Counted from the first letter of the stretch, positions 1-34,605 are shown. The stretch is DNA of 34,662 nucleotides from an uncultured Candidatus Saccharibacteria bacterium (GCA_964525175.1 CAZGFB010000001.1:1-34662); one strand, 5' to 3'. Program-made: numbers and translations. Notes: a model not told the origin generated them from the letters alone.

Positions 1-82
1 TACACTTTTCGCTTTTTGAATACAAAACGCTCAAAGTCTTGCGCTTGGGTCCCATCCCCAAGCTCACCTTCGCGGGAATGAC
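1..82. repeat. Partial copy (cut by window edge) of long-loop hairpin repeat 'element A'
   Basis: Aligns with 32139..32219, differing at about 5 positions by eye. Ends in CGCGGGAATGAC (reverse complement of the GTCATTCC repeat terminus). Contains inner hairpin CTTGGG-TCCCATC-CCCAAG (44..62). Confidence 0.85.
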
Positions 83-3724: not shown

Positions 3725-3881
3725 GTCATTCCTGCGGAGGCAGATTCACAAGTATTTTTCTGGAGAAAAATCTTCTGAACACGACTCAGCCCGTCGGCTT
3801 CCGTCCTTGCAGTCTGGTCCCATCCCGACTTCACCAGTCTGAAAATTTAAATCATGGATTCCCGATCAGGTCGGGAATGAC
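3725..3881. repeat. Composite hairpin repeat (element B + inverted short unit)
   Basis: Starts GTCATTCCTGCGGAGG and ends GGATTCCCGATCAGGTCGGGAATGAC. Homologous in inverted orientation to 8514..8671. Confidence 0.85.
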
Positions 3882-3918: not shown

Positions 3919-3926
3919 TACTCATC

Positions 3927-6677: not shown

Positions 6678-7961
6678 ATGTTTAAATTTAATTGGAAATA
6701 TAAAAAAATTACAAAGAGTGTGGGGCCGGGATTAATTACTGGCGCCGCCGATGATGATCCTTCAGGTATTGCCACATACAGCCAGACAGGAGCACAATTT
6801 GGTTATGGGCAACTTTGGACAGTTATTTTTATGTTGCCTTTAGTAACTGCGATTCAAGAAGCTTGCGCAAGAATCGGCGCCGTGACAGGAAAGGGGATAG
6901 CTACTGTTATTCGCGAGAATTATTCGAAAAAAGTTTTATACGTAGCTGTGTTTCTTGTTTTGATTGCAAATACTATAAATATTGGTGCGGATATCGGGGC
7001 GATGGCTGCCGCTGCGGGTTTAATTATTCCTCTTCCTTTTGTTCTTCTTGCGTTAGGCTTCACGACTTTAATTTTGGTTTTAGAAATTTTTGTTTCTTAC
7101 AAAAATTATGCAAAACTTCTCAAATGGTTGGCTCTTGCACTCTTCTCTTATGTGCTTACTGTGTTTATTGTAAAACAGCCATGGAGTGAAATTTTACATG
7201 CGACATTTGTCCCGCATTTTGAGTTTACTTTTGCGTTTCTTTTCATTATTACTGGAGTGTTGGGCACTACAATTTCTCCGTATATGTTTTTCTGGGAGGC
7301 TTCAGAAGAAGTTGAGGAGGAGCATAAGAAAAATATGATTCATAATGGTAAGCCTGCTTTGACAAAATCTTTTATGAAGTCGATTCGTTTGGATAATGCG
7401 ATTGGGATGATTTCCTCACAAATTGCAACATGGTGTATTATCGTTGTTTCCGCCACGGTACTGCATAACAATGGCGTCACAAATATTGCAACTGCTGCAG
7501 ACGCGGCTCGAGCACTCGAACCGCTTGTTCAAACATTTCCATATGCAGGCTTTTTAGCAAAGTTACTATTTGCTGTTGGGGTTATCGGATTGGGCTTACT
7601 TGCTGTGCCTGTACTTTCAGCTTCAGCTTCTTATGCAATTTCAGAGGCTTTTTCTTGGCGAGAAGGTTTAAACCAGAAATTTAAAAGAGCTCACGGATTT
7701 TATGGAGTTATTACCGTTGCAACTTTGATCGGGCTCATGATTAATTTTATTGGTATAGACCCTGTGCGAGCGCTTGTGATTACTGCTGTGATTAATGGAA
7801 TTATTGCTGTACCTCTTATTTTCTTAATTGCAAAAATTGCCTCAAATGAAAAAATTATGGGAGAGTATAAAAGTAGTAAGCTTTCAAGTACTCTTGTTTG
7901 GTTAACATTTTTCTTAATGGCCACCGCCGTGGTTGCGATGTTTATTGCGTTTTTGATATAA
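6678..7961 (+). CDS. NRAMP-family divalent metal cation transporter
   Basis: 427-aa polytopic protein with N-terminal GPGLITGAADDDPSGIATYSQTGAQFGYGQLW, typical of the NRAMP/MntH-related family. Confidence 0.88.
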   Translation: MFKFNWKYKKITKSVGPGLITGAADDDPSGIATYSQTGAQFGYGQLWTVIFMLPLVTAIQEACARIGAVTGKGIATVIRENYSKKVLYVAVFLVLIANTINIGADIGAMAAAAGLIIPLPFVLLALGFTTLILVLEIFVSYKNYAKLLKWLALALFSYVLTVFIVKQPWSEILHATFVPHFEFTFAFLFIITGVLGTTISPYMFFWEASEEVEEEHKKNMIHNGKPALTKSFMKSIRLDNAIGMISSQIATWCIIVVSATVLHNNGVTNIATAADAARALEPLVQTFPYAGFLAKLLFAVGVIGLGLLAVPVLSASASYAISEAFSWREGLNQKFKRAHGFYGVITVATLIGLMINFIGIDPVRALVITAVINGIIAVPLIFLIAKIASNEKIMGEYKSSKLSSTLVWLTFFLMATAVVAMFIAFLI

Positions 7962-7962
7962 A

Positions 7963-8083
7963 GAATTATGAATCGACACAAAATAAGGAGTGGAGCGACT
8001 ATATTTTGTGTCGTCTTCGCGAATGCGGGGATCCAGGTCGATTCTGATTTTTCAGACTGGATTCCGGCCTTCGCCGGAATGAC
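7963..8083. repeat. Composite hairpin repeat (AT-rich motif + H hairpin + two inverted short units)
   Basis: GAATTATGAAT; H hairpin CGACACAAAATA-N16-TATTTTGTGTCG (7974..8013); unit GTCGTCTTCGCGAATGCGGGGATCCAGGTC (8010..8039); inverted unit CTGGATTCCGGCCTTCGCCGGAATGAC (8057..8083). Confidence 0.9.
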
Positions 8084-8470: not shown

Positions 8471-8671
8471 GTCATTCCGGATTTAGTCCGGAATCCAGTC
8501 TCGCACTCGCATTGTCATTCTCGACCTGATCGAGAATCCATGAATTAATTTTTCAGACTGTGAAGTCGGGATAGGACCCGACTGCAAGACCGGAGGCTGA
8601 CGAGCCGAGGTGTGGCCAGAAGATTTTTCAGTAGAAAAATACTTGTGGATTCCCGTCTCTACGGGAATGAC
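8471..8671. repeat. Composite hairpin repeat (two tandem short units + inverted element B)
   Basis: GTCATTCCGGATTTAGTCCGGAATCCAG (8471..8498), linker TCTCGCACTCGCATT, GTCATTCTCGACCTGATCGAGAATCCATG (8514..8542), then the inverted copy of element B (8550..8671) ending GGGAATGAC. Confidence 0.9.
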
Positions 8672-9576: not shown

Positions 9577-9657
9577 CTGGATCCCCGATAGCCTTCCTTT
9601 CAGTCAGGCTTCGAGGACGACACAAAATATAGTCGCTTCACTCCTTATTTTGTGTCG
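9577..9657. repeat. Composite hairpin repeat (inverted long-loop unit + H hairpin)
   Basis: CTGGATCCCCGATAGCC...CGAGGACGAC, then CGACACAAAATA-N16-TATTTTGTGTCG (9618..9657). Inverted relative to the copy at 7974..8039. Confidence 0.85.
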
Positions 9658-9780
9658 ATTTTTAATTCCACCTTTTTAATCGTTGCTTTTTTAAATTTAT
9701 GTGTTATACTTAAGCAATCAGTTTTCGGAGAGATTCGACCTCTAAAAAATCTGTTTTAAATACATTCCAATCGTCTTTGT

Positions 9781-9853
9781 GTCATCCTCGTGTAGTCACG
9801 GGGATCCAAGTCCTGAATTTTCAGACTGGATTCCGGACTAAATCCGGAATGAC
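9781..9853. repeat. Composite hairpin repeat (two inverted short units)
   Basis: GTCATCCTCGTGTAGTCACGGGGATCCAAGTC + CTGAATTTTCAGA + CTGGATTCCGGACTAAATCCGGAATGAC. The second unit is the exact reverse complement of 8471..8498. Confidence 0.9.
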
Positions 9854-12168: not shown

Positions 12169-12213
12169 AAAACTTGTGGTTATGTAATTAAAAGTTTGGT
12201 ATGATTATATCGT

Positions 12214-13886: not shown

Positions 13887-16800
13887 ATGAATGAAAAAAC
13901 CTATATCAGCCAAAAATCTGTTCAATCTTCTAATCTAGGATACGAGAGAGAAAATAGCTCCCGTTCAAAATTTAAATTATCTTTAGTAAAAACATTTGTA
14001 ATCTTTTTTGTGTTCCTTTTATTTTTTGTAGTTCGAGTAGAAAAAATTCACGCCGCGCAAATAACAGTTTATGCTACGGCAAATGGTGTAAAATGGATGG
14101 GTACTAATGCTGGTTGGAATACAAATCCAGATGGTGTGAGTGGAACTTTTTATAGTAATCCACAAAACAATTCAACTGATACGTTTATTGTTGATCTTAA
14201 TGGAAAATCTGGAATATCTATTGATACAGACATTGTTGTAGATAAAATACAAGATTCTTCAGCTACTGCAAGCGTTTCTCTTAATGCGCCAAGAACTATT
14301 TCTGTTTTAAATGGTGGTATTTACTATTCGGGTGCTAATACAGGGGGACTTATTAGTTCAAGTTATAATTTGACAGTTCTTGGTACTGTCACGAGCGCAG
14401 TTGGTGGTAAGCGTGTGATTATTACAAGTGGGACCGCATCGTTGACAATTAATGCTGGTGTTGGAAATACGGCAGTTCTCAATCAAGGAACGAGCTATGT
14501 AATTAATCATGCTGGTAGTGGCCAAATTACAGTTATTGGAAAAGTTGTTGGTTCAACAACACTTGCTGCCATTTACGTTACTACCGCATCCAATCAGCTT
14601 TATTACAATCCAGGATATGATGTTTTTAGTGATGGAGGCGCTTCTGCTGGTGGCCGTTCTTTACAAAATACTAGTGGCACAATTGTTGCAGTTGGAAATA
14701 TATCAGGTACATCTGCGAACGGGTCAAGCATAGAAATGATTCGAAATGATGGTGGAACCTTTGAATTAATTGGAAATATAGCAATTACAGGCTCAGCAGT
14801 TCGTGGTATTTGGAACCGCACAGGAGCTGTCGCACACGTGTATGGAAATGTTGATGTGTCAGGCAGTACCGGCGCCTCTTATGGTGTTTGGAATCAATCA
14901 GTCACTACAAGCAACACAATTACTGGTAACCTAAGCAATCCAAGTGGCTCACCAACAGCTGTCGCAGCTTTTTCTAGTGCTGGAATGGTAACAATATATG
15001 GAACAAAAACTGGAAGTGGAACTGTGAACTCAGCAACTTATACTACGATGGCAACGACTTATGTTTCAGTTTCCCCGGCATCATTACCTGCCGGAGCAAC
15101 TGGATATCTCGACACTAGTATTACTGGAGTAGGGACTACTTGGAACGGAAGTGAAACCCCAACAATAAATAATAGTGTAAGTAGCATTACTGCTGTATCA
15201 TCTGGTGAATGGACTACTACAGATGGCACACATGCCACCTTGCCTTTGCAAAATAGTGCAACAAGTAGCTTTGGTGCATTTAGTATAACTATAGGTACAG
15301 CTACTTCTGGTCCACTTGCTGTTTTTTCACCCTCACATATTTTGAGTCAAACAACCGGAGCGACAAGCAATTCCTATAACTTAACAATTACAGGAATAAA
15401 TACTCTTTGGGCGATGGATATTGCAAAAGGAAATCATACAGCTTCAAATTTATTCTCTGCCTCTACTGGAGGGACAATAAGCAATGTCCTAGTATCAAAT
15501 GATAATACAGTTACTTTAACATTAGCTACAGATGCAACTCAGCGTGTAATAACTATTACAGATAATAGTACAAATCAAACAAGTGCTTTTGATACAAATA
15601 ATATTTTAACGTACGATCTTAGTCCAACCGGAGGGAATGTAAATAATTATATTATGATCGAGGGAGGTATGAGATGGGATGGTGGTCGTTGGATCAGCAC
15701 TGCGCTTACTAGTGGTGCAGGAACTGCATTGGGAGCAGTACGCTTTGTTGGAAAGATAAATAAAATAGATGGCTATATTTCTCAGACTGGTAGTGCTGGA
15801 GCTGGTAATTTGGTTATTTTAAATATTGATGGTGAAAATGGGCCCACCTATTCTGTTCCTTATGTAGTTGGTGGGGCATTCCCAAATGCATGGCTTACAA
15901 TGTTTTCTGGATTAGATGACACAGCCACACATACATATATGTTAATTTGGCCAAACGGAGAAGTTGTGGGTAACCCAACTATTGGAAAAATTCGCACGAC
16001 AGGTGGTACAGGAATCAGCACTACAGCTCTTGTTCCACGGCCTGTGCTAGCGGTTTACGGTGATTCAATTACTCAAGGTGGAGCATACGAAAGTTCGCCA
16101 CATAACTCAACACTTTATTATGCTTATTTGTTAGCAAAAAAACTCAATTATCAAGTCGTTAACTTGGGAATTAGTGGAAGTACAGTTAGCTCACTGACTC
16201 ATGGAGGTCTTAATCCAACAACAAAAAATGGTGTAAGCAGAACAGCTGATATAACTAGCCTTAACCCAAAAGCAAGTATAGTATTAATTTTATATGGTAC
16301 CAATGATGTTACCTTTAACGCTAACCAAGGAGGAACACCCACAGAGGCCAATTTTCGAGCGGACTATGCTAGCATGCTCGCTGGTATTCGTGCGGGAAAC
16401 CCAAATGCATTAATTATTTCAGAGAGAATTTTGATGACGTCGCGAGTGGATGAAGCGACTAGAAATACATGGAGCCAAACAGATATTGCAGCAGCTGTAT
16501 CAGCACAATCAGATCCAAAGATTTTATATATGCATGGTGGGTGGGATAATTATCAAGACACCACAGGTAGTGATGGAGTGCACCCTCTTCCAAGTAAAAA
16601 CCAAGATATAGCGGATGGGATGTATTCTGACATTATCTCTGCAATTTCGACAACTGATTCAATTAAAGTTGCTACAACTACATTGACCAGCAGAGGTGGT
16701 ACATCTGCAACAATTACTTCTGCGGGTGGTATTCATGGTACGGCACCATACACATATCAATGGCTGCGTAGTGCAACGAGTAGCTGGTCTGGATTTCAAG

Positions 16801-17957
16801 TTGATGGAGCTACTGCAACAACATTAAATGACACAGGTTTAAATCCTTTGTCGACATACTATTACACACTTCAAACGACAGACAGCAACGGATTTTCAGC
16901 ACTTAGTAGTCCTGTTGAGGTTGGTCCTGCTTCAAACGACGCTACTCTTTCTGATTTAGTTATAAGTCAAGGAACTCTAAGTCCGGTATTTTCTTCAAGT
17001 ACAACTTCATACACCGTTGATGTTTTAAATGACGTCACAAGTTTGACTGTTACTCCAACTGCAAATCAGGCAAATGCAACAATCACAGTGAATGGTGAGG
17101 CCGTTAATAGTGGTGAAACATCAAGCCTAATAACATTAAATGTTGGTGACAACACTGTTTTGACGGTAACACTTGCTCAGGATGAGTCAACAACCAGAAC
17201 ATATACAATAACTGTAACAAGAGGGGCTGTAATAGTTATTCCACCAACATTAACCGTTCAAGACGCTTCATTGGTTGCAACGAGTTCCGCTGTCTTTAAT
17301 GGAACTATCACAGTTGATGGATATGCCTCTTCAACTATTGTTGGTTTTAATTATGGAACAACATTAGCATATGGTAGTACAGCTTCAACTACTGGAACAT
17401 TTGGTACAGAAACTTTCTCTAAAACAGTTACAGACCTGCTTCCAAATACTCTCTATCACTTTCAGGCTTTTGCAGAAAATAGTGCAGGGGTCGGAACATC
17501 AAGTGATGCTACAACTACCACCTCAGCACTTCCTGTATCTCCGGTACAAAGCACAACCAGATCCCAGGGTAGCTCAGTACAAAGCAGGCTTAAAAACCTA
17601 ATTTATATGGGCAAAACCCAAGCGGCAGATGATTTAAAGAAACAATATTCCTATCTATTTCCAAATGAAAATCAAATAGACACAAAAGCAAAAGAGACTT
17701 CACCTTCCCCAGCGTTTACTCGAGATCTTAAATTTGGTATGACAGGAGCGGATGTTAAGAAACTTCAACAATATTTAAACAATAATGGATATGTCGTTGC
17801 TAAAACAGGAGCTGGATCTAAAGGAAAAGAGACGACAACATTTGGACCTGCAACACGCTCAGCTTTAATTAAATTTCAAAAAGCAAACAAAATTACTCCA
17901 GCAATCGGATATTTTGGTCCAAAAACACGAGGTGTGGTGGAGAAATCTGCTTTGTAA
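13887..17957 (+). CDS. Large secreted/cell-surface multidomain protein with SGNH (GDSL) hydrolase and C-terminal peptidoglycan-binding domain
   Basis: Signal/anchor segment (VKTFVIFFVFLLFFVVRVEKIHA). About 650 aa Gly/Thr/Ser/Asn-rich repetitive region (beta-helix-like). SGNH blocks GDSITQGG (GDS at 16059..16067), GISGST, YGTNDV and DGVHPLP. FN3-like segments, a cadherin-like/Big segment (ATLSDLVISQGTLSPVFSSSTTSYTVDV) and a PG_binding_1-like C-terminus. Confidence 0.85.
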   Translation: MNEKTYISQKSVQSSNLGYERENSSRSKFKLSLVKTFVIFFVFLLFFVVRVEKIHAAQITVYATANGVKWMGTNAGWNTNPDGVSGTFYSNPQNNSTDTFIVDLNGKSGISIDTDIVVDKIQDSSATASVSLNAPRTISVLNGGIYYSGANTGGLISSSYNLTVLGTVTSAVGGKRVIITSGTASLTINAGVGNTAVLNQGTSYVINHAGSGQITVIGKVVGSTTLAAIYVTTASNQLYYNPGYDVFSDGGASAGGRSLQNTSGTIVAVGNISGTSANGSSIEMIRNDGGTFELIGNIAITGSAVRGIWNRTGAVAHVYGNVDVSGSTGASYGVWNQSVTTSNTITGNLSNPSGSPTAVAAFSSAGMVTIYGTKTGSGTVNSATYTTMATTYVSVSPASLPAGATGYLDTSITGVGTTWNGSETPTINNSVSSITAVSSGEWTTTDGTHATLPLQNSATSSFGAFSITIGTATSGPLAVFSPSHILSQTTGATSNSYNLTITGINTLWAMDIAKGNHTASNLFSASTGGTISNVLVSNDNTVTLTLATDATQRVITITDNSTNQTSAFDTNNILTYDLSPTGGNVNNYIMIEGGMRWDGGRWISTALTSGAGTALGAVRFVGKINKIDGYISQTGSAGAGNLVILNIDGENGPTYSVPYVVGGAFPNAWLTMFSGLDDTATHTYMLIWPNGEVVGNPTIGKIRTTGGTGISTTALVPRPVLAVYGDSITQGGAYESSPHNSTLYYAYLLAKKLNYQVVNLGISGSTVSSLTHGGLNPTTKNGVSRTADITSLNPKASIVLILYGTNDVTFNANQGGTPTEANFRADYASMLAGIRAGNPNALIISERILMTSRVDEATRNTWSQTDIAAAVSAQSDPKILYMHGGWDNYQDTTGSDGVHPLPSKNQDIADGMYSDIISAISTTDSIKVATTTLTSRGGTSATITSAGGIHGTAPYTYQWLRSATSSWSGFQVDGATATTLNDTGLNPLSTYYYTLQTTDSNGFSALSSPVEVGPASNDATLSDLVISQGTLSPVFSSSTTSYTVDVLNDVTSLTVTPTANQANATITVNGEAVNSGETSSLITLNVGDNTVLTVTLAQDESTTRTYTITVTRGAVIVIPPTLTVQDASLVATSSAVFNGTITVDGYASSTIVGFNYGTTLAYGSTASTTGTFGTETFSKTVTDLLPNTLYHFQAFAENSAGVGTSSDATTTTSALPVSPVQSTTRSQGSSVQSRLKNLIYMGKTQAADDLKKQYSYLFPNENQIDTKAKETSPSPAFTRDLKFGMTGADVKKLQQYLNNNGYVVAKTGAGSKGKETTTFGPATRSALIKFQKANKITPAIGYFGPKTRGVVEKSAL
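17625..17921 (+). repeat. 297-nt near-identical direct repeat (copy 2)
   Basis: See 13361..13657. Confidence 0.9.
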
Positions 17958-19237: not shown

Positions 19238-19251
19238 AGTAGCATAATGGG

Positions 19252-19337
19252 GAAGAATTATGAATTATGAATTAGGAATTATGAATGGGGAGTAAGAAAG
19301 ATGTTCGAATTTATTCTTAATTCATAATTCCTAATTC
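19252..19337. repeat. AT-rich inverted repeat (GAATTATGAATTAGGAATTATGAAT ... ATTCATAATTCCTAATTC)
   Basis: Left arm 19252..19286 and right arm 19313..19337, with about 18 bp pairing and a ~33-nt loop. Member of the family also at 20780..20887 and 31066..31144. Confidence 0.8.
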
Positions 19338-19387
19338 TATTCTAAAATTTCTTCCAAATTTTGGAATTTAGTGTATACTGTCTTCAT

Positions 19388-20229: not shown

Positions 20230-20793
20230 ATGCTTCTCAATCCAAAAATTCAAAAAGCAATTTATGTTGCTACGCATCAACATCGCCATCAAGAAAGAAA
20301 AGTGAGTGGAATGCCATATATTGTACATCCTTTTTCTGTTGCCTGGCTTTTGTCAGAGCAAACAAAAGATGAAGATATTATTGTAGCGGGCTTGCTTCAT
20401 GACGTGCTCGAGGATACAGACGGCTATGATTACAATGATATTGTGAGAGATTTTGGAGAAAGAGTTGCCGAAATTGTTTCCGAGGTAACAGAATTTAAAG
20501 ATTTGCCTTGGCATGAAAGAAAAGAGAAGTATATTAAAGTCTTTGAAAATTCATCACAAGAATCTTTGATGGTTGCAACAGCGGATAAGATTCATAATTT
20601 ATCTTCACTTTATGAGGAGATTTTGGAGACAGGAGAGAATCCCTTTGGTACTAAGTTTAAATCATATGATGAGTCAAAATGGTTTTATGAATCTGTATAC
20701 GAGGTGATGGAAAGAAGACTAGGGAATAAAATCCTTTTGGCAGAATTTAAGGAGATGTTGGAGTTGGTTTTTAAGGGTAGAATTAAGAATTAG
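20230..20793 (+). CDS. HD-domain protein, RelA/SpoT-type (p)ppGpp-hydrolase-like (small alarmone hydrolase-like)
   Basis: YIVHPFSVAWLL...GLLHDVLEDT...ATADKIHNL pattern of the HD_4/SpoT hydrolase domain. The ATG is 1 nt after the cupin gene stop. Confidence 0.8.
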   Translation: MLLNPKIQKAIYVATHQHRHQERKVSGMPYIVHPFSVAWLLSEQTKDEDIIVAGLLHDVLEDTDGYDYNDIVRDFGERVAEIVSEVTEFKDLPWHERKEKYIKVFENSSQESLMVATADKIHNLSSLYEEILETGENPFGTKFKSYDESKWFYESVYEVMERRLGNKILLAEFKEMLELVFKGRIKN

Positions 20794-20887
20794 GAATTAT
20801 GAATTATGGAAATACCGGGGCCGAATGGTCCGGCATTTTATAGTATTCTTAATCTATTCTTAATTCCTAATTCATAATTCTTAATTC
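20780..20887. repeat. AT-rich inverted repeat of the GAATTAAGAATTAGGAATTATGAAT family
   Basis: Left arm 20780..20809 overlaps the HD-gene stop codon; right arm 20845..20887. The loop contains a small GC hairpin (GCCG-AATGGTC-CGGC). Confidence 0.8.
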
Positions 20888-20952
20888 TGTTACGATTGAA
20901 TTTATGCTGTTTTTCGTGTATTATGAAATTATTATAAGTAACTTATAAAAAC

Positions 20953-21552
20953 ATGGACACAACAAAAAGAACCCCAATATCTATTTTAAAATGGTCTCTC
21001 ATTATCGGGATTGTAATAGTTCTCAATCTTTTCTATAACTACACACTCTCCCTTGTCTTTTCTGCTCCAGAATATAATACATATTGTGAACAAAAGCAGG
21101 TAAATATTTCTCCAGATACTCAAGAAAAATGTGTTGCTGAAGGCGGTGCCTGGACTCAATATCCCGCAAATGCGAATCCAAAACTAATCAACCAACCTGT
21201 TATTGTTGATCCAAACAACAACACTAACGTACTTGGTTATTGCGACCAGACATTTTCATGTAGTCAAAAATTTGAAGACGCAAGTAAAAAATACGACAGA
21301 AATGTTTTCATCACCCTTGTCGTTCTTGGCGTACTCACTTTTGTTGCCAGTTTGTTTTTTGTGAATTTTGAAATTGTTTCTGTTGCGCTTTCGATTGGTG
21401 CAGTGCTTGATTTTGTAATTGCTTCCATTCGTTATTGGGCAAGAGCAGATGATTTGATCAAAGTTTTAATTCTCGGTGTTGCTCTCGCTGTACTTATTTG
21501 GGTGGCAATTAAAAAATTTAACATCAAAGCTGAAAATGAACCCCGCGTCTAA
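20953..21552 (+). CDS. Hypothetical membrane protein (199 aa)
   Basis: N-terminal TM segment (WSLIIGIVIVLNLFYNY), a Cys-containing extracytoplasmic segment and three C-terminal TM segments. Overlaps the leuS start by 17 nt. Confidence 0.6.
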   Translation: MDTTKRTPISILKWSLIIGIVIVLNLFYNYTLSLVFSAPEYNTYCEQKQVNISPDTQEKCVAEGGAWTQYPANANPKLINQPVIVDPNNNTNVLGYCDQTFSCSQKFEDASKKYDRNVFITLVVLGVLTFVASLFFVNFEIVSVALSIGAVLDFVIASIRYWARADDLIKVLILGVALAVLIWVAIKKFNIKAENEPRV

Positions 21553-24500
21553 AGATTACGATCATAAAGAAATAGAGCCAAAGTGGCAAAAAGAATGGGA
21601 AGAGAAAGGCGCATTTAAAGCCTCGATTGACCTCTCTAAGCCTAAAAAATACGTACTCGATATGTTCCCGTATCCTTCGGGTGCGGGGCTTCATGTGGGG
21701 CATCCTCGTGGCTATATTGCCTCTGATGTTTATGCACGCTTGATGCGAACGAAAGGTTTTAACATTCTTCACCCGATGGGTTTTGACTCTTTTGGTTTGC
21801 CCGCAGAACAATATGCAATCAAAACAGGCAACAATCCAAAAATTTTTACAGATGAACTTGTAAAACAATATCGAAAACAATTAGACATAATTGGTTTTAG
21901 TTATGATTGGGAAAGACAAATAGCGACTCACAGACCTGAATACTACAAATGGACACAGTGGATTTTTTTGAAGCTATATGGATCTTGGTATAACAAAGCT
22001 CACGATAAAGCGGAAGCGATTGAAACTCTGGAAGCTATTTTTGAAAAAGATGGAAATGAAAATGTAAATGCAATTTGTGATTCTGATACAAAAATTGTAA
22101 CCGCTTCTGAGTGGAAAGAAATGGACACTTTAGCGAAACATCAATTATTGATGAAGTATCGATTGGCCTACGAAGGGATGAGCTCGGTAAACTGGTGCCA
22201 AGAGCTTGGAACAGTGCTCGCCAACGATGAAATTGTGGACGGTCCAGACGGCGCGCCTGTTTCAGAGCGTGGAGGCTTTCCTGTTGAGAAAAAAACTTTA
22301 AGACAATGGTTTTTAAGAATTACAGCTTATGCCGACAGATTGTTAAGTGGATTAGAAACAATTGATTGGCCTTCGCATATAAAAGAAATTCAAAAGAATT
22401 GGATAGGGAAATCTGAGGGTACTCAGATTAAATTTAAAATTAAAAATGAAAAATTTAAAATTGAGGCAGAAAAAGAAATAAATCTACCCAACCCTGTGTC
22501 ATCCTCGGGTACTCCCGGGGATCCAAGTCTGGATTCTTCTGTAGAAGTCTTCACAACCCGAGTAGATACTCTTTTTGGCGTCACCTATGTTGTTATTGCA
22601 CCAGAACATGAATTAGTACAAAAACTTTTAGAGTCTGTTTCAAACAAGGAGGAAGTTTTGAAATATATTGAAGAAGTAAAAAATAAAACAGCAGAAGATC
22701 GCACTGCTGAAAATAAAGAAAAAACAGGTGTGCCACTTAAAGGTGTAACAGCCGTAAATCCTGCAAATGGAGAAGAGGTGCCTGTGTGGATTGCTGATTA
22801 TGTTTTGGCTTCATACGGTACAGGTGCAGTGATGGCAGTGCCAGCTCACGATGATCGAGATTTTGCTTTTGCGAAGAAGTATGGATTGGAGATTAAGGAG
22901 GTTGTTATTTCAGAGAGGATTGATAAGAGAAATCCTCCAGTTGCCAATAAAGAAAAAGTTGAAAGAAAAAATGTTCAAGCGGTGGTATTTGATCCTAAAA
23001 CTGAGAAATATTTGTGTTTACATTCTATTAAACATCTGTGGAATACTTTTCCAATGGGTGGAGTGAACGACGGGGAAGATTTAATTGAAGCAGCTAAAAG
23101 AGAAGTTTTAGAAGAGACCGGATATAAAAATTTGATAAAAGGTAAAATTCTTGGAGGTTCCGTACGCGCTGAATATTTTGCTAAACATAAAGATCAAAAT
23201 AGAGTTTCATTCACAAATTTAGTTTATTTTGAATTAGATGGGTATAGTCAGGATGAAATTTCAGAAGAAGAAAAAGGAGAGAATGAAATATTATGGGTAG
23301 ATAAAGGCAACTTGAATTGTGATTTTATGTGTCATGCGGAAATGGATGTGTGGCTTGAGAGATTAAACAATGCTGAAGGTTCATACAACGATGACGGTGT
23401 GCTTGTAAATTCTCAAAAATTCGACAGCCTTTCTTCCGAAGAAGCACGAAAAGAAATTACGAAAGCTGTGGGTGGAAAATTTGTTACAAAATATAAAATG
23501 CGAGATGCTGTGTTTGCAAGACAAAGATATTGGGGAGAGCCGATTCCAATTATTCACGAAAAAGACGGAACGATAAAGGCTCTTTCTCCAAAAGATTTAC
23601 CGCTAGAACTTCCAGATGTTAAATCTTATGCTCCAACAGGTAATGCAGAATCTCCACTTTCAGCCGTTGAGGATTGGATGGAAAAAGGTTATGAAACAAA
23701 TACAATGCCGGGCTGGGCGGGTTCATCTTGGTACTTCCTACGATATATGGATCCTAAAAATGAAAATGCTTTTGCGAGTGAAGAAGCGTTAAAATATTGG
23801 GGGCAGGTAGATATGTATGTGGGAGGAGCTGAGCACGCAACAGGGCATCTTTTGTATTCAAGATTTTGGAATAAGTTCTTACACGATTTGAATCTTGTGC
23901 CAAATGAAGAACCTTTCAAAGTTCTTCGAAATCAAGGAATGATTCTCGGTGCCGATCATAAAAAAATGTCAAAAAGATGGGGGAATGTTGTTAATCCTGA
24001 TGATGTAGTAAATACATTTGGTGCAGATACACTTCGAGTTTTTGAAATGTTCATCGGGCCATTTGATTCACAACTTCCTTGGTCCACAGATGGTATAATT
24101 GGTTCAAGAAGATTTATTGAAAAAGTTTGGCGACTTCAGTATAAGGTTGTAGAAGATAACGGCGACCCTTCAAACTTTTTGCCATTACATCATTTGGATA
24201 CAAATGATGCAGAAAAGAATCAGACGGCAAAAACTTTTAAGGGCAAGTATCCTTACGAGCAAAGTCTCCATAAAACTATAAAAAAAGTTGGAGAGGATAT
24301 TGAATCATTTAATTTCAACACAGCAATTTCAGCAATGATGATTTGTTTGAATGAAATGGAAAAATCTGATAAAGTTTACAAAGAAGATTTCGAAAAATTT
24401 CTACAAATTCTTTCTCCATTTGCCCCACACATTACAGAAGAGATTTGGAGCACACTCGGTAAAGAGAAAATATTACAGGATTCTGGCTGGCCGGAATTTG

Positions 24501-24721
24501 ATGAAAGTAAGCTTACAAGTGAGACTGTAACAATGGTGGTACAGGTCAATGGAAAGGTTCGTGGGGAGCTAATTGTGCCTACAAATGTGGATGAAAATAC
24601 CGCATTAGAATTAGCAAAAAATTCTGAACAAGTCGCAAAATGGCTTGAAAAAGCTGAAATTATCAAGGTCGTTTTTGTCCCGGGTAGACTTGTCAACATT
24701 GTTGTCAAGGTTTCCCCTTGA
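21536..24721 (+). CDS. leuS: Leucine--tRNA ligase with extra in-frame insertions (repeat-derived peptide; Nudix domain)
   Basis: HIGH motif ([14 protein letters not shown]), editing domain ([44 protein letters not shown]), [10 protein letters not shown], KMSKS as KMSKRWGN and the C-terminal VQVNGKVRG domain. ATG 21536 ([21 protein letters not shown]) is preferred over GTG 21476. Confidence 0.95.
   Translation: [1061 protein letters not shown]
22498..22529. repeat. Short hairpin repeat unit inside the leuS coding sequence
   Basis: GTCATCCTCGGGTACTCCCGGGGATCCAAGTC followed by TGGATTC. Differs by one loop base from the intergenic unit at 32063..32093. Translated in frame as [14 protein letters not shown]. 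Confidence 0.9.
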
Positions 24722-25849: not shown

Positions 25850-25926
25850 GTCATTCCGAATTTAGTCCCGAATCCAGTCTCGCGCCCGCATTGTCATCTT
25901 CGCTGTACTCAGCGGAGATCCAAGTC
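25850..25926 (+). repeat. Tandem pair of short hairpin repeat units
   Basis: GTCATTCCGAATTTAGTCCCGAATCCAG, linker TCTCGCGCCCGCATT, GTCATCTTCGCTGTACTCAGCGGAGATCCAAGTC. Confidence 0.9.
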
Positions 25927-26234
25927 CTGCATTTTTACTAACTAATAAAATTACTCTCGGTATAAGTTTTTTGGAACACGATAAAATTCTGCTGAATTTT
26001 CTCTCTGTCCGTCGTCGCCACTCCTCCCAAGTTTCCAAAAAACTTACACCTTCGATTAATTTTAAACAACGGCTACCATTCCGATAGAGAATTAGTGGAA
26101 GCGGTGGCGGGTTGTATCTCTCGACTACGAGAAATACAGTCATTTGAATTGGCCATGCAAAAAAGCCTCTGTTGAGCTCGTTTTTGCGTGGCGGACTCGA
26201 AATACTTGTATAAATTGCATAACTATGTTATAAT
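25927..26234 (+). repeat. Conserved intergenic module C (copy 1), ending in a strong promoter
   Basis: Blockwise homologous to 34285..34590, with conserved hairpins at 26112..26139 and 26152..26192. Confidence 0.7.
26206..26234 (+). promoter_or_regulatory. Promoter TTGTAT-17-TGtTATAAT
   Basis: -35 at 26206..26211, 17-nt spacer, extended -10 with TATAAT at 26229..26234. Drives the 26311 gene. Positionally equivalent to the promoter at 34562..34590. Confidence 0.6.
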
Positions 26235-26310
26235 ATAGAGAAATAGAACAAATCAAAGTCTTGGGGTCCACGGTTGGATTTTTAGATTTTGAACAGCAGA
26301 AAGGTTAATT

Positions 26311-26737: not shown

Positions 26738-26809
26738 TGGGACTTATTCCTGAATCTTAAATCATAAATCTTAAATCATCAAAAATTATTTTGCTTCGCT
26801 TCTAATTTT

Positions 26810-29890: not shown

Positions 29891-31066
29891 ATGCAGAATT
29901 TAAAAGGTAAAAAGATATATGTTGGTCTTTCTGGTGGAGTGGATAGCTCTGTGGCTGCGGCTCTTTTGCTGGAAGCTGGCGCTCTCGTGACGGGAGTCTT
30001 TATAAAAGGCTGGTATCCGGAATTTTTGAAATGTGACTGGAAGGAAGAGAGGCGAGATGCGATGCGTGTGGCTGCACATTTAGGAATACCATTTTTGACT
30101 TGTGATGCGGAAGAGGCATATAAAAAGAATGTGATTGATTATATGATTTCTGAATATAAAGCAGGGCGAACTCCTAACCCAGATGTGATGTGTAATAAGT
30201 ATGTAAAATTTGGAACATTCTTTGATTTTGCTATGGAGCGTGGTGCGGATTTTGTGGCGACAGGGCACTACGCTCGCTCCGCTCGAATTAAAAATGAAAA
30301 ATTGACACAAAACAACGAGCGAAGCGACTATGTTTTGTGTCATCCTCGCGAATGCGGGGATCCAGGTTCGGATTCGGATGCTCAGCTATTGAAAGGGGAG
30401 GATGGGAATAAGGATCAGAGTTATTTCTTGTGGGCAGTATCAAAAGATCAATTAGAAAAAACTCTTTTCCCGATTGGAGAAATTGATAAATCTGAAGTTA
30501 GAAAAATTGCTAGAAAATATAAACTTTTTACTGGTGAAAAAAAAGACAGCCAAGGTTTATGTTTTCTTGGTAAGGTTGATTTGGATGAATTTTTATCTCA
30601 TTATATTCCAAAAAATAAAGGAGATGTCTTAAATAAAGACGGTGAAGTAATTGGCCATCATGACGGTGTGCATCTATACACATTGGGAGAAAGACATGGA
30701 TTTACTGTCACAAAAAAAGGCATAGAAGATAAGCCGAACTATATTGTTGCAAAGGACATAGAAAAAAACACACTTACCGTCTCTGATTCAATTATCGAGA
30801 TTCAAAAAACCTCCTGCTCTGGTGTTATTCTTCGTGAGGTGAATTGGATCATAAAACCGGAGTTAAATAAAGAATATATGTGTCGAGTTAGATATCGACA
30901 ACCACTTTTTCGATGCTCGGTTCATCGTGAGGCTAAGCCTCACGATGTAGAAGGTTGTATTGTGAATTTTGTGAACAAACAAGATTTTGTATCAACTGGC
31001 CAATCTCTGGTTTTGTATGACGGGGATATTTGTTTGGGAGGAGGAATAATTGAGGGTAGAATATAG
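29891..31066 (+). CDS. mnmA: tRNA-specific 2-thiouridylase MnmA with in-frame repeat insertion
   Basis: PP-loop VGLSGGVDSSVAA, EYKAGRTPNPDVMCNKYVKF, ATGHYAR, KDQSYFL, KKDSQGLCFLG and C-terminal GQSLVLYDGDICLGGGII. Confidence 0.93.
   Translation: MQNLKGKKIYVGLSGGVDSSVAAALLLEAGALVTGVFIKGWYPEFLKCDWKEERRDAMRVAAHLGIPFLTCDAEEAYKKNVIDYMISEYKAGRTPNPDVMCNKYVKFGTFFDFAMERGADFVATGHYARSARIKNEKLTQNNERSDYVLCHPRECGDPGSDSDAQLLKGEDGNKDQSYFLWAVSKDQLEKTLFPIGEIDKSEVRKIARKYKLFTGEKKDSQGLCFLGKVDLDEFLSHYIPKNKGDVLNKDGEVIGHHDGVHLYTLGERHGFTVTKKGIEDKPNYIVAKDIEKNTLTVSDSIIEIQKTSCSGVILREVNWIIKPELNKEYMCRVRYRQPLFRCSVHREAKPHDVEGCIVNFVNKQDFVSTGQSLVLYDGDICLGGGIIEGRI
30304..30367. repeat. H hairpin + short hairpin unit inside the mnmA coding sequence
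   Basis: GACACAAAACA-N16-TGTTTTGTGTC (30304..30341) and GTCATCCTCGCGAATGCGGGGATCCAGGT (30339..30367). Homologous to the intergenic composite at 7974..8039. Translated as ...TQNNERSDYVLCHPRECGDPG... Confidence 0.9.
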
Positions 31067-31144
31067 AATTATGAATTAAGAATTATGAATTCATTAAGAG
31101 GCGTGCTTCTGTTTTGTCCATTCTTAATTCCTAATTCCTAATTC
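31066..31144. repeat. AT-rich inverted repeat of the GAATTATGAATTAAGAATT family
   Basis: Left arm 31066..31094 begins at the last base of the mnmA stop codon. Right arm 31120..31144 ends 6 nt before TATAAT at 31151..31156. Confidence 0.8.
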
Positions 31145-31162
31145 TTGAAGTATAATACTTCT

Positions 31163-32002
31163 ATGACCCCAGAAACATACATCAAAAAATCGTCAGGCGT
31201 ACTAGAATTGTTTAACAAAGCTAAGCTCATTGACTCCCTAGAAAAAGCGGGAGCCTCAATGTTTGTTGCAGAAGATGTCGCAAACAAAATTGAAGAAAAA
31301 TTAAAAGAAGGAATGCCTACCTCAATGATTTATTCTCAATCATTCAAACTTCTCCGTAAAAAGGAAAGTCGACCAGCTATTCGATATTCACTTCGCCGAT
31401 CGATCGCAGATTTAGGTCCAACAGGATTTCCGTTTGAAGATTTTATTGGGGAAATATTTAGAGAGAAAGGTTTTAATATTATAAATGACTTAATGGTGCA
31501 AGGAAAATGTATTGAGCATGAAATAGATATTGTTGCACATAATGAAGACCATTTAATAATGACAGAAATTAAATTTCATAATCAGCTCATGCTAAAGTCT
31601 GATGTGAAAGTTGCTTTATATATCAAGGCTCGTTTTGATGACTTAGAAGGTGTTGATTTTGTAATTGATGGAAAGAAAAGAAAGATGACACAAGGTTTAC
31701 TTTTGACTAATACAAAATTTACTGAACATGCTATTAAATTTGGTGCTTGTGCGGGTGTAAATATGATCGGTTGGAACTACCCTGCAAAAGGTAATTTGCA
31801 CGATCTTATTGAAGAGACAGGTCTTCATCCACTAACATGCCTCACTACACTTTCAGGAAGAGAGAAAAAAGTGCTTTTGGAAAAAGAGATTGTTACATGT
31901 AAAGCTCTTAAATTGAAGAAAGAAGTTTTGATTGAAATGCAATTGTCGGAGGGTAGAGTAGCTAGGGTGTTGAAGGAGATAGAAGAAGTCGCATCGTTTT
32001 AA
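31163..32002 (+). CDS. ATP-cone domain + PD-(D/E)xK (Mrr-like restriction endonuclease fold) protein
   Basis: The N-terminus IKKSSGVLELFNKAKLIDSLEKAGASMFVAEDVANKIEEKLKEGMPTSMIY resembles an ATP-cone. The central FEDFIGEIFREKGF...HEIDIVAH...IMTEIKFH gives a D...E-x-K nuclease motif. ATG 31163 preferred. Confidence 0.7.
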   Translation: MTPETYIKKSSGVLELFNKAKLIDSLEKAGASMFVAEDVANKIEEKLKEGMPTSMIYSQSFKLLRKKESRPAIRYSLRRSIADLGPTGFPFEDFIGEIFREKGFNIINDLMVQGKCIEHEIDIVAHNEDHLIMTEIKFHNQLMLKSDVKVALYIKARFDDLEGVDFVIDGKKRKMTQGLLLTNTKFTEHAIKFGACAGVNMIGWNYPAKGNLHDLIEETGLHPLTCLTTLSGREKKVLLEKEIVTCKALKLKKEVLIEMQLSEGRVARVLKEIEEVASF

Positions 32003-32036
32003 ATGTTCTAAATGTTCAAGTTGTTCTAGGTGTTCT
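32001..32036 (+). repeat. Four tandem 9-nt repeats (ARRTGTTCW)
   Basis: AAATGTTCT AAATGTTCA AGTTGTTCT AGGTGTTCT, starting inside the stop codon of the nuclease gene. Confidence 0.8.
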
Positions 32037-32062
32037 AAATGAGAAAGAATTCGATCCTTTCT

Positions 32063-32264
32063 GTCATCCTCGGGTAATCCCGGGGATCCAAGTTTGAATT
32101 CAGAATTTTCAGACTGGATTCCTGCCTTACAGGCACTGTACACTTTTCGCTTTTTGAATACAAAATGCTCAAAGTCTTGCGCTTGGGTCCCGCCCCAAGC
32201 TCACCTCCGCAGGAATGACAAGCGGGCTCAGACTTGGATCCCCGCTGAGTACAGCGAGGATGAC
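32063..32264. repeat. Full-length composite hairpin element (short unit + long-loop unit containing element A + inverted short unit)
   Basis: Left end GTCATCCTCGGGTAATCCCGGGGATCCAAGT (32063..32093). Right end is the inverted unit ACTTGGATCCCCGCTGAGTACAGCGAGGATGAC (32232..32264). The interior CTGGATTCCTGC...GCAGGAATGAC encloses the ~81-nt element A (32139..32219). Confidence 0.9.
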
Positions 32265-32315: not shown

Positions 32316-32417
32316 TCCCGTTAGAAGTTTACCATAGGTACAGCTTGGATCTTCGGGATAATTTAGTTAAATAAATGAATTAGTGTAAATATATTAATAA
32401 GTAAACTTCTAACGGGA
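32316..32417 (+). promoter_or_regulatory. alaS leader: 17-bp perfect long-range inverted repeat ending at the A of the start codon
   Basis: TCCCGTTAGAAGTTTAC (32316..32332) pairs with GTAAACTTCTAACGGGA (32401..32417) around a 68-nt loop. Extended -10-like TGgTATAAA at 32296..32304 lies just upstream. Confidence 0.6.
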
Positions 32418-34162: not shown

Positions 34163-34172
34163 ATACGCATTT

Positions 34173-34284
34173 GTCATTCCGGCGAAGGCCGGAATCCAGT
34201 CTCGCATCCTCTGTCATTCTTATGTACTCATGGGAATCCAAGTTAATCCGCATTGTCATCTTCGAGTACTCTCGGAGATCCAAG
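34173..34284 (+). repeat. Tandem array of three short hairpin repeat units
   Basis: GTCATTCCGGCGAAGGCCGGAATCCAG (34173..34199), GTCATTCTTATGTACTCATGGGAATCCAAG (34213..34242) and GTCATCTTCGAGTACTCTCGGAGATCCAAG (34255..34284), with 12-13-nt linkers. Confidence 0.9.
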
Positions 34285-34590
34285 TTCGTATCTTTAATTT
34301 ACAAAATCTTTCTCGGTGAAAGTTTTGTGTCGCACGGATATTTTTCTGGTGAAAAATTCCTCGAGCTCGCGCCGTCGCGCTCGCTAGGCTCCCCAAAACT
34401 TCCACGCTCAACAATTTTGTAAATACATTCGAGAGCTTCTTTTGCTGGTGGGGAGGTGGTGGAGGTAGTGGGCTGTATTTTTCGATTACAAAAATACAGG
34501 CTGTTTTATTGTGCCGAAAAAGCCTCTGCTGAGGGCTTTTTCGGCACGGGAATTCATGGGCTTGCATAAATCAGTAAAACATGCTATAAT
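34285..34590 (+). repeat. Conserved intergenic module C (copy 2), ending in a strong promoter
   Basis: Blockwise homologous to 25927..26234. Hairpins at 34473..34499 (10-bp stem) and 34511..34547 (14-bp stem). Confidence 0.7.
34562..34590 (+). promoter_or_regulatory. Promoter TTGCAT-17-TGcTATAAT
   Basis: -35 at 34562..34567, 17-nt spacer, extended -10 with TATAAT at 34585..34590. Confidence 0.6.
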
Positions 34591-34605
34591 ATAGTTTGAT
34601 TCAAA

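What the first reader, a model, noticed from the sequence alone, without database searches (positions are those of the whole stretch)
32063..32264. Modular, nested palindromic repeat family occupying most larger intergenic regions
The basic unit is about 28-33 nt: GTCATYC + 5-8-bp stem + 3-5-nt loop + stem + GRATCCAR. I count at least 18 units. Loci: 3853, 8010, 8057, 8471, 8514, 8643, 9577, 9781, 9826, 22498, 25850, 25893, 30339, 32063, 32232, 34173, 34213, 34255. Units occur (a) in head-to-tail arrays with a 40-43-nt period and conserved 12-15-nt linkers (TCTCGCnCnCGCATT). They also occur (b) as inverted pairs joined by CTGAATTTTCAGA. In form (c) the loop is expanded by 80-120-nt modules (element A at 1..82 and 32139..32219; element B at 3725..3845 and 8550..8671). 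The 32063..32264 copy shows the full nesting, with inverted GTCATCC...GGATGAC ends like a MITE. Translations of these repeats produce the pseudo-ORFs in the track (VIPAKAGIQ, SFRRRPES, WIPAFAGMT). From memory, similar peptides pollute annotations of other bacteria. No cognate transposase is visible, and the RAYT at 12214 is flanked by a different REP.
Basis: seen in the sequence. Interest (0 to 1): 0.6.

Follow-up and report, generated by a model that had tools for sequence, protein, structure and literature searches.

The report
Ssn-linked hairpin repeats in a CPR genome
The repeats are real and belong to a known family, the TGTC/CGTC-tagged hairpins called dRS3, NTS or SRM that a small single-strand DNA nuclease (Ssn) recognises; here they fill a tiny Patescibacteria genome, sit in frame inside essential genes, and flank the nuclease gene like the ends of a mobile element.

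Summary
All 18 listed loci carry TGTCAT-stem-loop-stem-ATCCA hairpins. The 767-kb genome holds 186 units, and four of five sister genomes hold 76-234.

The family is already described. These are CGTC/TGTC-tagged REPs (Di Nocera 2013), the same as Neisseria dRS3/NTS and the "Ssn-related motifs" of Chenal 2025. The 27-mer GTCATTCCCGCGAAGGCGGGAATCCAG fits the NTS consensus exactly and occurs unchanged in more than 120 genomes of many phyla.

It is a 94-aa GIY-YIG protein, 55% identical to the single N. meningitidis homologue, and it is flanked by these hairpins. Within the genus, repeats and gene co-occur; G005 has neither. Across 300 genomes of the phylum the odds ratio is about 17.

- Neighbouring units: 50 tags-outward pairs, 0 tags-inward.
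- The ssn cassette sits at different loci in sister genomes.
- At one orthologous site the gene is replaced by non-coding cargo.
- Fifteen units lie in frame in 11 Pfam-confirmed genes (LeuRS and MnmA in the window), with variable occupancy between species.

Verdict: a new member of a known kind. That Ssn drives the spread is inferred, not shown.

The parts
32063..32264 (.). Composite element of the finding. It reads SRM(+) 32063-32090, linker, SRM(-) 32115-32219 with module A in its loop, then SRM(-) 32235-32264. The TGTC tags face outward.
   Evidence: The ssDNA fold is -51.3 kcal/mol, z -7.75. The composite is absent from the orthologous spacer of G001 and G002, and G003 carries a different SRM trio there.
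32115..32219 (-). SRM unit whose loop is expanded by module A (about 80 nt).
   Evidence: A twin copy lies at C3:23766-23870. Module A has 6-10 copies.
1..82 (-). Truncated copy of the module-A-expanded unit at the contig start; the assembly breaks inside a repeat.
   Evidence: D12: 1-58 against 32139-32196, 95%; D17.
3725..3881 (.). Tags-outward pair: a degenerate SRM(+) at 3725-3750, module B at 3745-3845, and SRM(-) at 3855-3881.
   Evidence: (I1, I4).
7958..8083 (.). A 53-nt hairpin module (7958-8010), then a tags-outward pair: SRM(+) 8010-8035 (GTCGTC variant) and SRM(-) 8058-8083.
   Evidence: (D5, I2, I12).
8471..8671 (.). Head-to-tail SRM(+) units at 8471-8497 and 8514-8540, module B in reverse at 8550-8647, and SRM(-) at 8646-8671.
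9577..9668 (-). Variant SRM(-) with an expanded loop (9577-9621), adjoining the reverse copy of the 53-nt hairpin module (9612-9668).
   Evidence: I2, I3.
9781..9853 (.). Tags-outward heterodimer: SRM(+) of 28 nt at 9781-9808, an 18-nt linker AGTCCTGAATTTTCAGAC, and SRM(-) of 27 nt at 9827-9853.
22498..22525 (+). SRM in frame inside leuS. It encodes VSSSGTPGDP at aa 341-350, just before the editing domain.
   Evidence: At the same site G001 has no SRM and G002 and G003 have an in-frame tags-outward dimer.
25850..25922 (+). Head-to-tail pair: an imperfect SRM at 25850-25876 and a 30-nt SRM at 25893-25922.
   Evidence: (D13, I8).
30287..30364 (+). Hairpin module plus SRM (30339-30364) in frame inside mnmA, adding about 31 codons.
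   Evidence: (D5). G005 has an empty site; G001 and G002 have a 39-nt SRM insert.
34173..34282 (+). Head-to-tail array of three SRMs (34173-34198, 34213-34240, 34255-34282), followed by further repeat modules to about 34600.

Best explanation
The units are TGTC/CGTC-tagged REP hairpins, known as dRS3 or NTS in Neisseria and as 'Ssn-related motifs' (SRM) more widely. In single-stranded DNA, SRMs are the binding and cleavage sites of Ssn, a roughly 94-aa single-domain GIY-YIG endonuclease. This genome encodes Ssn on contig C9, between two SRMs.

Shown here:
- the motif matches the published consensus;
- an Ssn homologue is present and is flanked by SRMs;
- repeat and gene co-occur;
- the stem covaries and keeps a strand-specific T-G wobble;
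- neighbouring units almost always have their tags facing outward;
- single units, pairs and the ssn cassette are present or absent at orthologous sites in sister genomes;
- some copies are tolerated in frame inside essential genes.

Inferred:
- SRM-ssn-SRM is the autonomous form. Tags-outward pairs carrying genus-specific non-coding cargo (modules A and B and others) are its MITE-like derivatives.
- Ssn cuts a few nucleotides 5' of the tag whenever the hairpin extrudes in single-stranded DNA, for example during replication, repair or DNA uptake. In a tags-outward pair this places one cut at each outer boundary, on opposite strands. Host repair or copying then does the rest.
- At the host level the system may also limit or shape recombination of incoming single-stranded DNA, as shown for Neisseria.
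For: Motif.
- GTCATTCCCGCGAAGGCGGGAATCCAG fits CGTCATTCCCGCGMAVGCGGGAATCYRG.
- The units have an 8-9-bp stem that opens with A-T and T-A, a 4-5-nt loop and a CCA tail, as defined for CGTC REPs.

Protein.
- C9:685-966 is an intact 94-aa GIY-YIG ORF: PF01541 at 49.8 bits against a 22.6 cut-off.
- It is 55% identical (tblastn E 1e-27) to the only homologue in an N. meningitidis genome, and that homologue is itself NTS-flanked.
- SRM(+) lies 24 nt upstream and an inverted SRM starts 6 nt after the stop codon.

Sister genomes.
- G001-G004 have ssn at 64-89% identity. In five of the six sister copies an SRM in the outward-facing orientation lies within about 50 nt of both ends or of one end; three of those copies have identical SRMs on both sides.
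- G297, from a different family of the phylum, shows the same SRM(+)-ssn-SRM(-) layout.

Co-occurrence.
- Unit counts in the genus are 178, 172, 107, 234 and 76 in G000-G004, and 0 in G005. G005 also lacks a close ssn.
- In the phylum sample, 44 of 57 genomes with at least 5 SRMs have Ssn, against 41 of 243 of the others.

Architecture.
- There are 50 tags-outward pairs, 9 tandem pairs and 0 tags-inward pairs.

Mobility.
- The cassette of G001 lies between orthologues of G000 C7:16620 and C7:16790, where G000 has none.
- The G002 cassette is orthologous to a G000 pair at C25 that carries non-coding cargo.
- The composite at 32063-32264 is absent from G001 and G002.
- Occupancy varies at the MnmA and LeuRS sites.

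Strand specificity.
- A T-G wobble at stem position 5 is kept in 14 of 15 distinct 28-mers and in 7 of 7 distinct 30-mers.
Against: - No biochemistry was done on this Ssn, and no transposition intermediate or target-site duplication was seen. The sister genomes are only 70-89% identical in DNA, so exact junctions could not be read.
- A GIY-YIG nuclease leaves no covalent intermediate and cannot join strands by itself, so the copying step is unexplained.
- 13 of the 57 SRM-rich genomes in the phylum sample lack a strong Ssn hit, among them G126 with 72 units (78% complete). Conversely, 41 genomes with Ssn have few SRMs of this exact pattern.
- The ssn of G001 carries an in-frame stop, yet G001 has 172 units.
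- Related genomes are not independent, so the odds ratio overstates the association.
Confidence: 0.85

Rival explanations
1. The units are REP/REPIN elements moved by a RAYT (IS200/IS605-type Y1 transposase), like the GTAG-tagged REPs of Pseudomonas or E. coli.
For: Two Y1_Tnp genes exist, at 12214-12915 in the window and at C15:8120-8812. The inverted-pair organisation resembles REPINs.
Against: The tag is TGTC, not GTAG. The window RAYT is flanked by its own perfect 42-nt inverted repeats (ATCCAAGGTCTCCCCTTGGA...), which have only about 6 loci in the genome. The C15 copy has no SRM within 2 kb. The 2013 survey found no RAYT flanked by CGTC repeats in any species.
Confidence: 0.04
2. The hairpins are mainly host regulatory structures, such as terminators, mRNA stabilisers or protein-binding sites. 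They would be kept by selection and spread only by recombination, with Ssn association incidental.
For: 78% of units lie in the 16% of the genome that is non-coding. 61 of the 80 SRM-bearing spacers lie between co-directional genes. Stems covary. REPs elsewhere act as RNA elements.
Against: Median distances are similar to the upstream stop (67 nt) and to the downstream start (82 nt), so there is no terminator-like placement. Units are present or absent at orthologous sites, and one genus member, G005, has none. Fifteen units sit inside coding sequence. The exclusive tags-outward pairing and the ssn cassette are not needed for a terminator role. This role could still be a secondary effect.
Confidence: 0.08
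3. The hairpins are integration targets for IS110/Piv-type recombinases, as dRS3 is for Neisseria filamentous prophages, and multiply for that reason.
For: IS110-family genes are present in the genome at C97 and C15. IS110 elements often target REPs, and dRS3 is cited as the target of a phage recombinase.
Against: Neither IS110 locus has SRM halves at its borders. There are only two such loci against 186 units. Being a target does not explain multiplication.
Confidence: 0.03

Closest known systems
NTS / SRM repeats with Ssn GIY-YIG single-strand nucleases (Chenal et al., Nat Commun 2025, PMC11893778)
   Same: The core sequence is identical. Both form a hairpin with an unpaired 5' GTC and a 3' C. 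The nuclease is a 94-aa single-domain GIY-YIG protein whose gene lies between inverted repeats. Repeat number and gene presence go together.
   Different: The host is an ultra-small Patescibacteria genome rather than mainly Pseudomonadati; that paper's text does not mention CPR. The tag is TGTC rather than CGTC. Density is about one unit per 4 kb. Four length classes coexist (26, 27, 28 and 30 nt). There are in-frame copies in essential genes. No activity was tested here.
CGTC-tagged REP superfamily (Di Nocera, De Gregorio, Rocco, BMC Genomics 2013, PMC3733652)
   Same: The 8-9-bp stem begins with A-T and T-A, the loop is 4-5 nt, and the tail is CCA. TGTC is a recognised tag variant. HH (tags-outside) dimers dominate. 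Intragenic copies are enriched in replication and repair genes.
   Different: That survey listed five phyla, none of them CPR, and concluded that no dedicated enzyme exists. Here the Ssn gene is found flanked by the repeats.
Neisserial intergenic mosaic elements (NIMEs: RS modules flanked by dRS3; from my own knowledge of Parkhill et al. 2000)
   Same: Lineage-specific modules of 50-150 nt are bounded by the same hairpin and build mosaics in intergenic regions.
   Different: The module sequences are unrelated and specific to this genus. Module B was found in none of 300 other genomes of the phylum.
Rickettsia palindromic elements RPE-4 and RPE-6 (equal to CGTC-4 and CGTC-1)
   Same: Palindromic repeats are inserted in frame in protein-coding genes that stay intact.
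   Different: The host lineage differs. Here the same gene site carries different unit combinations in sister species.
REPIN/RAYT systems
   Same: Inverted pairs of REP hairpins are the likely unit of movement, with a single-copy enzyme gene flanked by the same hairpins.
   Different: The enzyme is a GIY-YIG nuclease, not an HUH tyrosine transposase. The tag is TGTC, not GTAG.

Membership tests
NTS/SRM-Ssn system (Chenal 2025) | The repeat matches the NTS consensus CGTCATTCCCGCGMAVGCGGGAATCYRG or the SRM degenerate pattern. | tested here: met
   8 exact copies of GTCATTCCCGCGAAGGCGGGAATCCA and many one-pair variants. The SRM regex hits 54 times against 0-3 in simulated genomes. The first base is T rather than C in 183 of 184 units.
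NTS/SRM-Ssn system (Chenal 2025) | The genome encodes a homologue of N. meningitidis SsnA (tblastn E < 1e-10): a small single-domain GIY-YIG protein. | tested here: met
   C9:685-966 is 94 aa and scores 49.8 bits on PF01541. It is 55% identical, E 1e-27, to the single hit in an N. meningitidis genome.
NTS/SRM-Ssn system (Chenal 2025) | The ssn gene is flanked by the repeats on both sides. | tested here: met
   In G000, SRM(+) lies at C9:634-661 and an inverted SRM, with a module inserted, at about 972-1105. Three copies in G003 and G004 are flanked on both sides by identical SRMs.
NTS/SRM-Ssn system (Chenal 2025) | The protein binds and cuts the forward hairpin only in single-stranded DNA. | not testable with these tools
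   This needs purified protein. The indirect hint is the conserved T-G wobble, which pairs on one strand only.
CGTC-tagged REPs (Di Nocera 2013) | An unpaired CGTC/TGTC tag, an 8-9-bp stem starting A-T/T-A, a 4-5-nt loop and a CCA tail. | tested here: met
   168 of 186 units have 8 or 9 paired positions, and A-T and T-A are invariant.
CGTC-tagged REPs (Di Nocera 2013) | HH (tags-outside) dimers predominate, TT dimers are rare, and HT dimers are few. | tested here: met
   50 HH, 0 TT and 9 HT among neighbours 250 nt or less apart. The definition of HH was checked.
REP/RAYT (REPIN) systems | A GTAG tag and a RAYT gene flanked by the same REPs. | tested here: not met
   The tag is TGTC. Both Y1 transposase genes are flanked by other sequences.
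MITE (non-autonomous derivative of an IS) | Terminal inverted repeats shared with an autonomous element, no coding capacity, and presence/absence polymorphism. | tested here: met
MITE (non-autonomous derivative of an IS) | A target-site duplication and mobilisation by a transposase. | tested here: inconclusive
   The flanks in sister genomes are too diverged to read junctions. The partner enzyme is a nuclease, not a known transposase.

The most novel reading that the evidence does not exclude
SRM-ssn-SRM may be an autonomous mobile element of a kind not yet demonstrated. It would be moved by a GIY-YIG single-strand nuclease together with host repair, with no transposase. It would be currently active in this Patescibacteria genus. 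Its tags-outward dimers would capture genus-specific cargo and repeatedly remodel surface loops of essential enzymes such as aminoacyl-tRNA synthetases, DnaE, LigA, RecJ and Fpg.
Probability: 0.35. Interest if true: 0.7.

Novelty: new member of a known kind. Interest (0 to 1): 0.45.

Why it matters
- It extends the Ssn/SRM pair to the Candidate Phyla Radiation. About a third of 300 sampled genomes carry the hairpin, and this genus is at the top of the range at about one unit per 4 kb.
- The compact genomes give an unusually clean view of the system. The gene is a 0.35-kb cassette between identical hairpins. It sits at different loci in sister species, and one genus member lacks both gene and repeats. 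That is the comparative evidence that was missing for the idea that NTS-ssnA-NTS behaves like an insertion sequence.
- For annotation, these repeats generate spurious ORFs, break assemblies (the window starts inside one), and add 10-30 residues to essential proteins.

Tried and rejected
- Rfam at gathering thresholds found no family in the window, and ARAGORN found no tRNA.
- Pfam on the repeat-borne ORFs 25862-26143(-), 34256-34567(-), 34171-34422(+), 31853-32143(-) and 7700-8092(-) gave no hits, so they are pseudo-ORFs and not hidden ssn genes.
- The PDB sequence search returned only distant UPF0213 GIY-YIG proteins and no Ssn structure. NCBIfam has no Ssn model.
- Only 4 of 120 random NTS loci from other phyla have an Ssn gene within 8 kb. 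This is expected when there are many repeats per gene.
- N. polysaccharea and N. lactamica genomes gave no Ssn hit; only N. meningitidis did.
- No supplementary files of the 2025 paper are held. Earlier notes of this scan returned nothing.
- A search for loop-expanded units requiring exact 8-nt arms found only 7, so most module insertions have degenerate arms.
- The IS110 and second RAYT loci were inspected for split SRMs and none was found.
- The C88 ORF (722 aa), which I first took for PriA, has no Pfam hit, and its SRM lies near the N-terminus. I therefore did not count it as an in-gene copy.
- Searches were malformed requests and returned errors; one search was valid but found no match.

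Full report
**What is in the window**

The window is the whole of contig C1 of a 767-kb, 98-contig, 36% GC genome. The nearest named relatives of its AlaRS are Patescibacteria MAGs, at 62-63% identity, followed by Magasanikbacteria and Uhrbacteria. Every genome in its order is 0.5-0.9 Mb, so this is a CPR bacterium.

- GTCATYC occurs 22 times against 7.1 expected.
- The claimed identical copies are identical (I10 and I12).
- The arrays, the inverted pairs with the CTGAATTTTCAGAC linker, and the units with module-expanded loops are all present.
- The composite at 32063-32264 folds in single-stranded DNA into nested hairpins in which the outer units pair with each other (-51.3 kcal/mol, z -7.75).

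**Census of the genome**

A census that requires only the flanks plus at least 7 paired positions finds 186 units on 57 contigs. Of these, 108 are 26 nt, 18 are 27 nt, 43 are 28 nt and 14 are 30 nt. A flank-only pattern gives 178.

In units defined by their flanks alone, the inner stem positions covary:
- pair 9-18 is C-G 21, G-C 7, T-A 3, A-T 1;
- pair 11-16 is C-G 20, T-A 11;
- paired cells exceed every one of 500 shuffles for the 26-mers.

The 28- and 30-nt types keep a T-G wobble at the fifth stem position (14 of 15 and 7 of 7 distinct sequences). This wobble can pair only on the tagged strand. It therefore points to a single-stranded, strand-specific functional form.

**Identity of the repeat**

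The exact 27-mer GTCATTCCCGCGAAGGCGGGAATCCAG occurs in more than 120 genomes. These include Proteobacteria, Planctomycetes, Dehalococcoidia, Nitrospirae, Gemmatimonadetes, a Rickettsia endosymbiont and several Patescibacteria.

A full-text search for the core sequence led to Chenal et al. 2025 (PMC11893778).
- That paper defines the Neisseria Transformation Sequence CGTCATTCCCGCGMAVGCGGGAATCYRG, which contains dRS3, and a degenerate 'Ssn-related motif'.
- It shows that SsnA, a 94-aa GIY-YIG protein whose gene is typically flanked by the motif, binds the hairpin. SsnA cuts just 5' of it, and only in single-stranded DNA.
- The three bases before the palindrome matter for cutting, and the C after it matters for binding.

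The window's units keep exactly these bases.

Di Nocera et al. 2013 (PMC3733652) had already classed the same hairpins as CGTC-tagged REPs.
- Their definition: TGTC accepted as a tag variant, an 8-9-bp stem starting A-T/T-A, a 4-5-nt loop and a CCA tail.
- Tags-outside 'HH' dimers predominate.
- They are equivalent to dRS3 and to Rickettsia RPE-4 and RPE-6.
- Intragenic copies are frequent in replication and repair genes.
- No dedicated transposase was found.

Every one of these structural features is met here.

**The cognate gene**

The genome has three small GIY-YIG ORFs.

The one at C9:685-966 is 94 aa (YVYILASKYNGTLYIGVTNDL...). It has an SRM(+) 24 nt upstream. An inverted SRM, interrupted by a module-B-like insert, starts 6 nt after its stop codon. 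It is 55% identical (tblastn E 1e-27) to the single homologue in an N. meningitidis genome, which itself lies between NTS copies.

The other two ORFs (C11, C34) belong to a different GIY-YIG subfamily and are not SRM-flanked.

**Co-occurrence of repeat and gene**

| Genome | SRM units | Close ssn |
|---|---|---|
| G000 | 178 | yes |
| G001 | 172 | yes (in-frame stop) |
| G002 | 107 | yes |
| G003 | 234 | yes (three copies) |
| G004 | 76 | yes |
| G005 | 0 | no; only a 42%-identical paralogue |

G001-G004 have ssn at 64-89% identity.

Across 300 genomes sampled from the phylum, 105 have at least one unit. Of the 57 genomes with five or more units, 44 have an Ssn hit at E <= 1e-17, against 41 of the other 243. 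The odds ratio is about 17. Related genomes are not independent, so this is indicative only.

**Architecture**

Among neighbouring units no more than 250 nt apart, 50 pairs have the tags outward, 9 are tandem and none has the tags inward. Linkers run from 0 nt, giving perfect 52-nt palindromes, to about 170 nt. Many pairs join a 26/27-nt unit to a 28/30-nt unit.

In the sister genomes, five of the six ssn copies have an SRM in the outward-facing orientation within about 50 nt of one or both ends. In three copies the two flanking SRMs are identical to each other but differ between copies. G297, from another family of the phylum, has the same SRM(+)-ssn-SRM(-) layout.

The gene cassette and the non-coding pairs therefore share their ends, as an insertion sequence and its MITEs do.

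**Evidence for movement**

1. The composite of the finding is absent from the orthologous spacer upstream of alaS in G001 and G002. G003 has a different trio of units there.
2. The G001 ssn cassette, whose upstream SRM and promoter-like stretch are nearly identical to those of G000, lies between orthologues of G000 C7:16620 and C7:16790. G000 has no cassette there. G000's own cassette is at the C9 site, which it shares with G004.
3. The G002 cassette is orthologous to a G000 tags-outward pair at C25:4340-4664, whose cargo is about 220 nt of non-coding modules.
4. The cargo modules are genus-specific. Module B has about 36 copies in G000 and many in G001-G004, but none in 300 other genomes of the phylum. 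The hairpin itself is pan-bacterial. This resembles Neisserial mosaic elements.

**In-frame copies**

By my ORF census, 145 units are intergenic, although 84% of the genome is coding, and 36 lie inside ORFs.

Fifteen units lie inside eleven Pfam-confirmed genes: ileS, dnaE, leuS, ligA (two units), pheT, recJ (two), murD, mnmA, fpg (two), truB (two) and recO. They are read through as peptides such as VIPAEAGIH, SSSGTPGDP and LDSRLRGND.

At the mnmA site:
- G005 has the short native loop.
- G001 and G002 have a 39-nt insert, one unit plus a linker.
- G000 has a 93-nt insert, a hairpin module plus a unit.
- All inserts are multiples of three.

At the leuS site:
- G001 has no unit.
- G002 and G003 have an in-frame tags-outward dimer.
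- G000 has a single unit.

This repeats the Rickettsia RPE phenomenon in a different phylum. It also matches the 2013 remark that replication and repair genes are frequent hosts.

**Rivals**

- The two Y1 transposase genes and the IS110-family genes are not bordered by these units.
- A purely regulatory role does not account for the polymorphism, the in-gene copies or the cassette, although units between co-directional genes may well affect transcripts.
- An assembly artefact is excluded by in-frame copies in conserved genes and by the sister genomes.

**Limits**

- Ssn activity, the copying step and the target rule are inferred, not shown.
- The sister genomes are too diverged for base-level junctions.
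- 13 SRM-rich genomes in the sample lack a strong Ssn hit.

**Verdict**

It is a member of a known family whose partner enzyme was identified in 2025. The new elements are the host lineage, the density, the in-frame insertions in CPR housekeeping genes, and the comparative evidence that the ssn cassette and its derivatives move.

Noticed in passing
window 32316-32417; also C11:2771-2873, C34, C24, C8, C33, C13, C26: A second MITE-like element of about 102 nt, with terminal inverted repeats TCCCGTTAGAAGTTTAC...GTAAACTTCTAACGGGA and 8 copies. Here it lies between the -10-like TATAAATAG and the alaS start codon, and it is absent from G001, G002 and G003. One copy lies next to the C11 GIY-YIG gene of the other subfamily, whose own ends carry CCCCGTTAGAGA/TCTCTAACGGGG. 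This may be a second nuclease-hairpin pair.
   Followed up: partly
window 12127-12915: A RAYT-like Y1 transposase ORF (Pfam Y1_Tnp 34 bits; NCBIfam REP_Tyr_transpos 39.5 bits, below its cut-off). It is bracketed by perfect 42-nt inverted repeats at 12127-12168 and 12872-12913. The repeat has only about 6 loci in the genome. A second copy of the gene is at C15:8120-8812.
   Followed up: partly
window 21476-24721 (leuS), aa 497-609: The LeuRS ORF carries a NUDIX domain inserted after the editing domain (PF00293, E 1.5e-11). The sister LeuRS ORFs are similarly long.
   Followed up: no
G000 C17:4402-8181 (ileS), aa 549-712: The IleRS ORF carries an inserted histidine-phosphatase domain (PF00300, E 1.3e-33). 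This is a second aminoacyl-tRNA synthetase with a foreign enzymatic domain.
   Followed up: no
window 3894-3933, 19243-19363, 20771-20895, 26746-26785, 31050-31166: AT-rich runs of AATTC(A/T)TAATTC units (GAATTATGAATTAAGAATTA and its complement) lie next to many gene ends and starts, often as inverted pairs.
   Followed up: no
window 25940-26250 and 34290-34600: Two similar regions are built from further repeat modules. The first 130 nt of 34290-34600 recur at C88, C9 and C13. Each region ends in a near-identical promoter-like TTG.ATAAAT...TATAATATAG. No Rfam family matches.
   Followed up: partly
window 13295-13594 and 17559-17858: A 300-nt direct repeat (93%) duplicates the peptidoglycan-binding C-terminus of ORF 12839-13684 at the end of the 1356-aa ORF 13887-17957.
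   Followed up: no
window 8120-8145; G000 C7:16640-16780; C25: Another short palindromic motif, GAATTTGTTTCGGATTTCG(T)GCTTCGAATTT, recurs in spacers and as cargo inside SRM pairs.
   Followed up: no
G000 C11:11736-14534 versus C5:14835-18101: There are two dnaE copies that look about 90% identical by eye. The C11 copy ends in a repeat-derived tail. This may be strain heterogeneity in the MAG or a decaying paralogue.
   Followed up: no
G001 C75:434-715 (L135): The ssn of G001 has an in-frame TAG although the genome holds 172 units. It may be a recently inactivated nuclease with persisting repeats.
   Followed up: no
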